Below are positions 51,990 through 52,020 of a stretch of 64,000 nt of DNA, piece by piece. The translations under genes were made by a program, and so were the position numbers. The stretch is from the NCBI RefSeq assembly GCF_000027125.1, contig NC_017626.1; one strand, given 5' to 3'. The DNA comes from Escherichia coli 042. GTDB lineage: Bacteria; Pseudomonadota; Gammaproteobacteria; Enterobacterales; Enterobacteriaceae. Under the pieces are notes generated by a model. The model was not told the origin of the DNA and searched no databases. It saw nothing but the letters and a program-made list of their open reading frames with translations. Position 1 is the stretch's first letter; the number at the start of each line of letters is the position of its first letter.

Positions 51990-52020
51990 TGTTATCCTAA
52001 GGATTATCCGAAAAATAATA
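51990..52020 (+). promoter_or_regulatory. possible RcsAB box upstream of rcsA
   Basis: TATCCTAAGGATTATCCGAAAAA resembles the RcsAB-box consensus (TaAGaatatTCctA-like) about 250 bp upstream of rcsA. Confidence 0.3.

What the first reader, a model, noticed from the sequence alone, without database searches (positions are those of the whole stretch)
51990..52020. Possible RcsAB-box upstream of rcsA
A TATCCTAAGGATTATCC-like element upstream of rcsA resembles the RcsAB box used for rcsA autoregulation. The match is approximate and the site lies a few nucleotides after the fliR stop.
Basis: inference. Interest (0 to 1): 0.2.

Follow-up and report, generated by a model that had tools for sequence, protein, structure and literature searches.

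The report
Known RcsAB box upstream of rcsA

Summary
The window is E. coli chromosome (fliR, rcsA, dsrB, DsrA). The functional unit is the 14-mer TAAGGATTATCCGA at 51998-52011, which lies 26 nt after the fliR stop and 264 nt before the rcsA ATG. It matches the RcsAB-box consensus TaAGaatatTCcta at 10 of 14 positions, including all five invariant ones. This exact 14-mer is listed in the literature as the E. coli/Shigella rcsA RcsAB box, and the Salmonella orthologue, also at -264, binds phosphorylated RcsB in EMSA. A weight matrix built from 10 capsule/biofilm sites, with no flhD or rcsA sites, ranks it 6th of 63,987 window positions (11.5 bits; 0.026 expected by chance in this intergenic region). 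The known flhD box elsewhere in the window ranks 1st. One such box is present upstream of rcsA in 79 of 80 Enterobacteriaceae species. Verdict: observation confirmed, interpretation supported, already known. Beyond the finding, the box sits in a roughly 173-bp stretch (51986-52158) with no insertions or deletions across those species. That stretch holds a second RcsAB-like box exactly 104 bp downstream (52102-52115), at or beside the core promoter. Three independently reported phage-resistance mutations fall at 52117-52121. Whether the second box is already described, and whether it binds Rcs proteins, I could not establish.

The parts
51998..52011 (+). RcsAB box of rcsA (distal box), TAAGGATTATCCGA. 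It lies -264..-251 from the rcsA ATG and is followed by an invariant AAA at 52012-52014.
   Evidence: It matches the consensus at 10/14 with all 5 core positions and scores 11.4-11.5 bits on the weight matrices, rank 6-8 in the window. It is identical to the published E. coli rcsA box and is present in 79/80 species.
51993..51997 (+). It is not part of the box.
   Evidence: It varies within E. coli and among species.
52102..52115 (+). Second, proximal RcsAB-like box, TAAGACAATTCCAG. Its start is exactly 104 bp downstream of the distal box start. Binding is not shown.
   Evidence: It matches the consensus at 10/14 with 5/5 core positions. The E. coli copy scores only 4.1-4.8 bits, while the median across orthologues is 8.5 bits (+ strand) and 9.5 bits (- strand). 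The arms T-R-A-G-A and T-T-C-Y are kept in at least 76/79 loci and the centre varies. The 104-bp spacing is invariant.
52035..52048 (+). Conserved middle element, CCAGGATACTCCTG. In most other genera it reads CAGGATATATCTGA/G (one base to the right of the E. coli register), which resembles the RcsB homodimer box except at position 1. Its role is unknown.
   Evidence: The RcsB consensus TN(G/A)GAN4TC(T/C)NA comes from PMC7913699.
51986..52158 (+). Indel-free conserved rcsA regulatory region that contains all three elements and the promoter candidates.
   Evidence: An ungapped column profile over 80 species shows the conservation. The region is 73% identical to E. coli and the 52085-52147 core is 85% identical, against 43-45% at four-fold degenerate sites of rcsA.
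52095..52124 (+). Candidate core promoter: -35 TTTACT (52095-52100), 18-bp spacer, -10 AATTAT (52119-52124), implied start near 52131. This is inferred.
   Evidence: Found by hexamer enumeration. It fits the statement that the YdaT site (51954-51971) lies about 170 bp upstream of the rcsA start (PMC11879457). The stricter promoter scan found nothing on the + strand.
52117..52121 (+). Cluster of three independently selected mutations in phage-challenged E. coli: C>T at 52117, a 1-bp deletion at 52118, and T>C at 52121.
   Evidence: PMC10044975 Table 4 gives +146/-144. The supplement of bioRxiv 10.1101/2025.03.14.643354 gives +145/-145 and +149/-141. I converted these to window coordinates from the fliR end (51972) and the rcsA start (52262).
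52139..52144 (+). Alternative -10 candidate, GATAGT, with an implied start near 52151. That start would put the proximal box at about -42.5. This is inferred.
   Evidence: The hexamer is conserved and is followed by a variable stretch.
51954..51971 (+). Published YdaT (Rac prophage regulator) footprint motif, TGAATTGCCATTAATATA, overlapping the end of fliR.
   Evidence: PMC11879457. The sequence is seen.
52262..52885 (+). rcsA coding sequence (207 aa, LuxR/GerE-type HTH), the gene controlled by the box.
   Evidence: It is 99-100% identical to proteins named RcsA with Pfam PF00196, and RefSeq annotates it as rcsA.
51187..51972 (+). fliR coding sequence, the upstream neighbour.

Best explanation
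TAAGGATTATCCGA at 51998-52011 is the RcsAB box of the E. coli rcsA promoter. A heterodimer of phosphorylated RcsB and the unstable co-activator RcsA binds this pseudo-palindromic 14-mer. The right half (TCCGA) is reported as the RcsB half-site, and the left half (TAAGG) is probably the RcsA half-site. Binding raises transcription of rcsA from a weak, AT-rich, H-NS-silenced promoter about 105-145 bp downstream. This creates a positive feedback loop that is limited by Lon degradation of RcsA and by H-NS silencing.

Shown here: the sequence, its position, its matrix score, its conservation, and its identity to the published site. Taken from the literature: binding and the requirement for autoregulation. 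Inferred: the exact distance to the transcription start and how activation works from that far upstream.
For: - The 14-mer is identical to the entry 'E. coli/Shigella rcsA TAAGGATTATCCGA' in a published table of RcsAB boxes.
- It matches the consensus TaAGaatatTCcta (PMC4325325) at 10/14 positions, with T1, A3, G4, T10 and C11 all present.
- A weight matrix trained without rcsA or flhD sites ranks it 6th of 63,987 positions. The same matrix ranks the known flhD box (7302-7315) 1st, which serves as an independent positive control.
- 79 of 80 Enterobacteriaceae species carry one such box upstream of rcsA. The median matrix score is 17 bits, so the E. coli copy is a weaker instance.
- More distant RcsA-like genes (43-44% identity) also have one strong box 230-231 nt upstream of the start codon.
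- The Salmonella orthologue lies at the same -264 position, and its fragment binds RcsB~P in EMSA. Binding was weaker than to flhDC, which the authors ascribe to the absence of RcsA.
- It differs from the RcsB homodimer consensus TN(G/A)GAN4TC(T/C)NA only at position 5 of the left half. That fits dependence on RcsA.
- The intergenic region is AT-rich (GC 0.40 against 0.50 for the window), which fits the reported H-NS silencing.
Against: - On sequence alone the E. coli site is only a moderate match: 11.4 bits against 14-21 bits for the training sites, with about 3 equally good sites expected by chance per 64 kb.
- I could not read the primary binding and mutagenesis papers (Ebel & Trempy 1999; Wehland & Bernhard 2000). 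Their content is cited second-hand or from my own recollection.
- The rcsA transcription start could not be verified, so the distance of -127 to -147 is inferred.
- One recent paper speaks of two RcsAB boxes ('box1' and 'box2') upstream of rcsA and places box1 over the YdaT footprint. I could not map those boxes to coordinates.
Confidence: 0.93

Rival explanations
1. The site is mainly an RcsB-only box (homodimer), or a box for RcsB with another partner such as BglJ, MatA or GadE, and not an RcsA-RcsB site.
For: RcsB~P alone shifts the orthologous Salmonella fragment. The site matches 8 of the 9 specified positions of the RcsB homodimer consensus.
Against: Binding by RcsB alone was weaker than at flhDC, and the authors attributed this to the missing RcsA. 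The left half deviates from the homodimer consensus. The literature lists the site as an RcsAB box tied to rcsA autoregulation.
Confidence: 0.05
2. The resemblance is a chance match in AT-rich intergenic DNA and has no regulatory role.
For: Eight sites in the window match the consensus equally well, and about 3 sites per window reach the same matrix score by chance.
Against: Only 0.014-0.026 such sites are expected in this particular intergenic region. The box is present in 79/80 species, while four-fold degenerate sites of rcsA are saturated at 43-45% identity. The identical sequence is a published site.
Confidence: 0.01
3. The inverted repeat ATCCT-A-AGGAT is an RNA element at the end of the fliLMNOPQR transcript, such as a terminator or stabilising hairpin.
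For: It lies about 20 nt after the fliR stop codon and contains a 5-bp inverted repeat.
Against: The terminator scan found nothing. The predicted fold is no better than shuffled sequence (-6.2 kcal/mol, z = -0.45). There is no G+C-rich stem and no T run. A 1-nt loop is sterically impossible. No Rfam family matches here.
Confidence: 0.01

Closest known systems
RcsAB box of the E. coli rcsA promoter (Ebel & Trempy 1999; Wehland & Bernhard 2000)
   Same: The 14-mer is identical (TAAGGATTATCCGA), the gene and species are the same, and it lies at the same position as the Salmonella orthologue (-264 from the ATG).
   Different: Nothing differs. This is that site. The window is not strain K-12: it has one substitution elsewhere in the intergenic region and lacks the IS1 upstream of flhD. 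The box itself is unchanged.
RcsAB box of flhDC (Francez-Charlot et al. 2003), present in this window at 7302-7315 on the - strand
   Same: It has the same motif family and is bound by RcsB with or without RcsA. It is the top matrix hit in the window and its sequence TAGGAAAAATCTTA equals the published site.
   Different: The flhDC box is a much stronger match (19.5-21 bits against 11.5). By the literature it mediates repression, whereas the rcsA box lies far upstream of its promoter and activates.
RcsAB boxes of capsule/EPS operons (wza, galF, tviA, amsG, cpsA)
   Same: They share the 14-bp pseudo-palindrome, an upstream activating position, and dependence on RcsA plus RcsB~P.
   Different: Those boxes control structural operons. 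The rcsA box controls the co-activator gene itself and so closes a feedback loop.
RcsB homodimer box TN(G/A)GAN4TC(T/C)NA (rprA, osmC, osmB; Huesa et al. 2021)
   Same: The right half TC(C)NA and the overall spacing are the same.
   Different: The left half of the rcsA box has G instead of A at position 5. Homodimer boxes are usually described as lying just upstream of the -35 element (PMC5651002), not more than 100 bp away.

Membership tests
RcsAB box (distal site 51998-52011) | 14-bp match to TaAGaatatTCcta with the five conserved positions T1, A3, G4, T10 and C11 | tested here: met
   It matches at 10/14 positions with 5/5 conserved positions. The consensus is from PMC4325325.
RcsAB box (distal site 51998-52011) | Weight-matrix score above chance, using a matrix built from independent known sites | tested here: met
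   It scores 11.5 bits and ranks 6th of 63,987 positions, with 0.026 expected in the intergenic region. The flhD positive control ranks 1st. The score is below the 14-21 bits of the training sites.
RcsAB box (distal site 51998-52011) | Location upstream of a gene regulated by the Rcs system | tested here: met
   It lies 264 nt upstream of the rcsA ATG in the fliR-rcsA intergenic region. rcsA is reported as RcsAB-activated.
RcsAB box (distal site 51998-52011) | Conservation at the orthologous position in related species | tested here: met
   79/80 species loci carry the box, with a median of 17 bits. Distant RcsA-like loci also carry one strong box.
RcsAB box (distal site 51998-52011) | Binding by RcsA plus phosphorylated RcsB in vitro | not testable with these tools
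   Literature only. EMSA on the Salmonella orthologue used RcsB~P alone. The E. coli site is listed as known. The primary papers are not held.
RcsAB box (distal site 51998-52011) | Required for RcsA/RcsB-dependent induction of the downstream gene, shown by mutagenesis | not testable with these tools
   From my own recollection of the abstracts, Ebel & Trempy 1999 and Wehland & Bernhard 2000 report this.
RcsAB box (proximal candidate 52102-52115) | Consensus and matrix match | tested here: inconclusive
   It matches at 10/14 with 5/5 core positions. The E. coli copy scores only 4.1-4.8 bits, and about 98 such sites are expected per window. The median across orthologues is 8.5 bits (+ strand) and 9.5 bits (- strand). 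It matches 8/9 positions of the RcsB homodimer consensus.
RcsAB box (proximal candidate 52102-52115) | Conservation pattern of a dimer site: conserved arms with a variable centre | tested here: met
   T1, A3, G4, A5, T9, T10 and C11 are kept in 76-79 of 79 loci, and positions 6-8 vary. The arms overlap promoter-element candidates, so conservation may have another cause.
RcsAB box (proximal candidate 52102-52115) | Binding by RcsB or RcsA-RcsB | not testable with these tools
   I found no accessible report. It might be 'box2' of PMC11879457, but I could not establish this.

The most novel reading that the evidence does not exclude
The known RcsAB box may be only the upstream anchor of a rigid two-site (perhaps three-site) Rcs operator. 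A second RcsAB-like box lies exactly 104 bp downstream, about ten helical turns and so on the same face of the DNA, and it overlaps or abuts the core promoter. The whole 173-bp module has tolerated no insertion or deletion across about 80 Enterobacteriaceae species. RcsAB or RcsB bound at both boxes could loop or stiffen the DNA. That could couple far-upstream activation to the promoter, cap the positive feedback by autorepression, or switch between two start sites about 20 bp apart. The mucoid, phage-resistance mutations at 52117-52121 would then act on this proximal control point.
Probability: 0.25. Interest if true: 0.45.

Novelty: already known. Interest (0 to 1): 0.12.

Why it matters
For the finding itself there is little new. 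It recovers a site described about 25 years ago that explains how E. coli amplifies RcsA to turn on colanic-acid capsule synthesis. The check is still useful as calibration.

The by-product deserves a short follow-up. The upstream region is indel-free and strongly conserved, it holds a second box at a fixed 104 bp, and adaptive phage-resistance mutations land beside that second box. rcsA up-regulation is a recurrent route to mucoidy and phage or antibiotic tolerance, yet the architecture of its promoter seems to be only partly described in the literature I could reach.

Tried and rejected
- **Consensus counting is not discriminating.** Eight equally good sites occur in the window, so I replaced it with weight matrices and conservation.
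- **Strict promoter and terminator scan of 51850-52350.** It found no + strand promoter and no terminator. The promoter candidates therefore rest on relaxed hexamer matching and are inferred.
- **RNA-structure reading of the inverted repeat.** Rejected (z = -0.45, no Rfam hit here).
- **The search for homologous proteins with RcsA.** It listed only near-identical E. coli variants and gave no distant orthologues. I used the 50%-cluster representatives and contig look-ups instead. Several of those contigs were too short upstream to be informative (L086, L087, L089, L090, and L091 had no hit).
- **Klebsiella, Erwinia, Pantoea and Yersinia rcsA loci.** None were retrieved, so the two-box architecture is untested there.
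- **Primary papers.** Ebel & Trempy (PMC93413), Sledjeski & Gottesman (PMC42411), Carlier & von Bodman (PMC1482964) and Thomason et al. (PMC4288677) are not held.
- **Sequence-string searches of the literature.** They found nothing relevant.
- **The rcsA transcription start.** I could not find it. The supplements tried were empty.
- **The paper cap** was reached.
- **A third RcsAB site at 52034.** The matrix rejects it (-23.7 bits). In other genera the element resembles the RcsB homodimer box except at position 1, so I keep it as 'unknown'.
- **Strain E2865.** It is identical over the finding, but it is not collinear with the first 20 kb of the window because it carries a P2-like prophage there.

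Full report
**1. What is at the coordinates**

The window is E. coli chromosome. A 501-bp stretch around the finding is 100% identical to many complete E. coli genomes, where the flanking genes are annotated fliR and rcsA. In the window, fliR is 51187-51972 (+) and rcsA is 52262-52885 (+), separated by a 289-bp intergenic region.

The published RcsAB-box consensus is the 14-mer TaAGaatatTCcta, in which the capital letters are the conserved positions (PMC4325325). The best register against it is TAAGGATTATCCGA at 51998-52011. This matches at 10 of 14 positions, including T1, A3, G4, T10 and C11.

It includes five bases to the left that are not part of the box, and it misses the last two bases, including A14, although the stated interval 51990-52020 covers the whole box. 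The five extra bases vary even within E. coli. The box starts 26 nt after the fliR stop codon and 264 nt before the rcsA ATG.

**2. Is it more than chance?**

- Consensus counting alone is not convincing. Eight sites in the window do as well.
- I took the published compilation of RcsAB boxes (Fang et al. 2015, PMC4381331, Table S1) and built weight matrices that exclude the rcsA sites.
- With 13 non-rcsA sites the box scores 11.4 bits, and 3.0 +/- 1.9 equally good sites are expected per 64 kb on both strands.
- With only the 10 capsule and hms sites (no flhD, no rcsA) it scores 11.5 bits and ranks 6th of 63,987 positions. That implies about 0.026 such sites in this intergenic region.
- The same matrix ranks the known flhD box 1st at 19.5 bits. 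That box lies at 7302-7315 on the - strand, about 190 nt upstream of flhD, and serves as an independent positive control.

**3. Conservation**

A protein-anchored scan of one genome per species returned 80 rcsA loci. They come from Escherichia, Citrobacter, Salmonella, Enterobacter, Lelliottia, Kosakonia, Buttiauxella, Leclercia, Trabulsiella, Yokenella and other genera, with RcsA 80-97% identical to the query.

- In 79 of them (the 80th has only 249 nt of upstream sequence) exactly one match to T[AG]AGG[AT]NNNTC[CT]NA lies upstream of rcsA. About 0.003 matches per locus are expected by chance.
- The commonest form is TGAGGATATTCCTA, and the median matrix score is 17 bits. The E. coli copy is thus a relatively weak version.
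- The three A's after the box were not part of the search pattern, yet they are invariant.
- Four-fold degenerate sites of rcsA are only 43-45% identical to E. coli in the same loci, so neutral sites are saturated.
- RcsA-like genes at 43-44% identity also carry one strong box 230-231 nt upstream: TGAGAATTTTCTCA in a syntenic fliPQR-rcsA-dsrB locus, and TAAGAATATTCCCA in another.

**4. Literature**

- The exact 14-mer is listed as the E. coli/Shigella rcsA RcsAB box. It is not flagged 'Predicted' as some rows are, and the table's reference list includes Wehland & Bernhard 2000 and Ebel & Trempy 1999.
- The Salmonella entry TAAGGTTTATCCGA equals my locus L011. It is given at -264 in Huesa et al. 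2021, where rcsA is induced by RcsB.
- Casino et al. 2018 showed by EMSA that RcsB~P binds the Salmonella rcsA fragment -275..-247. Binding was weaker than to flhDC, which they ascribe to the absence of RcsA. K180A and Q185A substitutions in the RcsB recognition helix abolish binding.
- PMC4325325 states that the right half of the box is the RcsB half-site and the left half is possibly the RcsA half-site.
- The rcsA box deviates from the RcsB homodimer consensus TN(G/A)GAN4TC(T/C)NA only at position 5 of the left half.
- From my own recollection of their abstracts, not verified here because the papers are not held: Ebel & Trempy showed the motif is needed for high-level rcsA expression, and Wehland & Bernhard showed RcsAB binding to rcsA promoters and loss of reporter expression on mutating the E. 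coli rcsA box.

**5. Mechanism**

The best-supported account is the standard one. RcsA-RcsB~P binds this operator and activates rcsA, giving positive autoregulation on an AT-rich promoter (GC 0.40 against 0.50 for the window) that is silenced by H-NS. DsrA, the anti-silencing sRNA, is encoded nearby at 53521-53607 on the - strand. The alternatives are excluded or unlikely: a chance match, an RNA hairpin or terminator, and an RcsB-only site.

**6. Beyond the finding**

- **An indel-free module.** Anchoring all loci on the box and comparing columns without gaps shows strong conservation from 51986 to about 52158. No insertion or deletion occurs in any species, although the distance from the box to the ATG ranges from 185 to 350 nt. 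This stretch is 73% identical to E. coli, and 52085-52147 is 85% identical.
- **A second box.** Exactly 104 bp downstream of the known box lies a second RcsAB-like 14-mer, TAAGACAATTCCAG in E. coli (52102-52115) and TAAGATGATTCCTG in most genera. Its arms (T-R-A-G-A and T-T-C-Y) are kept in at least 76 of 79 loci, and its centre varies. The E. coli copy is a poor matrix match (4.1-4.8 bits), mainly because of G at position 14. The median across orthologues is 8.5 bits on the + strand and 9.5 bits on the - strand.
- **A middle element.** A further conserved element, CCAGGATACTCCTG at 52035-52048, reads CAGGATATATCTGA/G in most other genera (one base to the right of the E. coli register). That resembles the RcsB homodimer box except at position 1.
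- **Limits of the architecture.** The three more distant loci that I examined do not keep the +104 partner.

**7. Where is the promoter?**

- I could not find the mapped start site. PMC11879457 says the YdaT footprint (TGAATTGCCATTAATATA, window 51954-51971) is about 170 bp upstream of the rcsA start. That implies a start near 52131.
- This fits a weak promoter: -35 TTTACT (52095-52100), 18-bp spacer, -10 AATTAT (52119-52124). The known box would then be centred near -127, and the proximal box would lie in the -35/spacer region.
- A second candidate, -10 GATAGT (52139-52144) with a start near 52151, would put the proximal box at about -42.5.
- Three mutations selected independently in phage-challenged K-12 fall at 52117-52121:
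  - a 1-bp deletion at +146/-144 (PMC10044975);
  - C>T at +145/-145 (bioRxiv 10.1101/2025.03.14.643354 supplement);
  - T>C at +149/-141 (same supplement).
- The bioRxiv paper links mutations affecting rcsA or its promoter to the mucoid phenotype.
- The deletion would shorten the 18-bp spacer to 17. The C>T change would create a TAAATT -10 element. The T>C change is not explained by this model.
- These positions are invariant in the 79 species loci. All of this section is inference.

**8. Open point**

PMC11879457 speaks of two RcsAB boxes upstream of rcsA ('box1' inside the YdaT footprint, 'box2' outside), citing Wehland & Bernhard. The figure is not available to me, so I cannot tell whether the known box is box1 or box2. 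I also cannot tell whether the proximal box I describe is already known.

**9. Verdict**

The feature is already known, so interest is low. The conserved two-box architecture and the mutation cluster are recorded as side observations worth a small follow-up.

Noticed in passing
window 52102-52115 (+), relative to 51998-52011: A second RcsAB-like box (TAAGACAATTCCAG) lies exactly 104 bp downstream of the known box in every one of about 79 species loci. Its arms are conserved and its centre varies. It overlaps or abuts the core promoter, and binding is untested.
   Followed up: partly
window 51986-52158: This roughly 173-bp non-coding stretch has no insertion or deletion across 80 Enterobacteriaceae species. 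It is 73% identical to E. coli (85% for 52085-52147), while four-fold sites of rcsA are at 43-45%. Downstream of about 52158 the 5' leader is variable in length and sequence.
   Followed up: partly
window 52117-52121: Three independently selected mutations from published phage-coevolution experiments (C>T at 52117, 1-bp deletion at 52118, T>C at 52121) cluster in 5 bp just 3' of the proximal box, at positions invariant across species. Two of them look like promoter-up changes, and the third is unexplained.
   Followed up: partly
window 52035-52048: The conserved element CCAGGATACTCCTG reads CAGGATATATCTGA/G in most other genera (one base to the right of the E. coli register). That matches the RcsB homodimer consensus except for C at position 1. 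The E. coli copy is more degenerate.
   Followed up: partly
window 7302-7315 (-): The known flhDC RcsAB box TAGGAAAAATCTTA lies about 190 nt upstream of flhD and is the top matrix hit in the window. The window lacks the IS1 element that K-12 carries upstream of flhD.
   Followed up: yes
window 14904-14917: This is the second-best RcsAB-matrix hit (TAAGCATTTTCTTA, 15 bits, pseudo-palindromic). It lies in the araF-ftnB intergenic region, about 160 nt upstream of ftnB by mapping to a K-12-like genome. I know of no Rcs link, and it may be chance.
   Followed up: no
window 20981-20994: An RcsAB-matrix hit (TAGGGGTAATCTTA on the - strand, 14 bits) lies in the short uvrC-pgsA intergenic region, 16-29 nt upstream of the pgsA start. 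It was not examined further.
   Followed up: no
window 51954-51971: The published binding motif of the Rac prophage regulator YdaT (TGAATTGCCATTAATATA) overlaps the last codons and stop codon of fliR, 27 bp upstream of the RcsAB box. The paper's 'box1' and 'box2' could not be mapped to coordinates.
   Followed up: partly
window 53521-53607 (-): The DsrA sRNA gene (Rfam RF00014, 102.5 bits) encodes the anti-silencer of H-NS repression of rcsA. It lies about 640 nt downstream of rcsA.
   Followed up: yes
L083 (Sodalis praecaptivus CP006569.1) 1336-1349: In Sodalis, rcsA is not next to fliR: a trehalose-phosphatase gene lies upstream on the opposite strand. A box with the same flank as in E. coli (TAAGAGTTGTCCGA followed by an A run) sits at -165, with no +104 partner.
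   Followed up: partly
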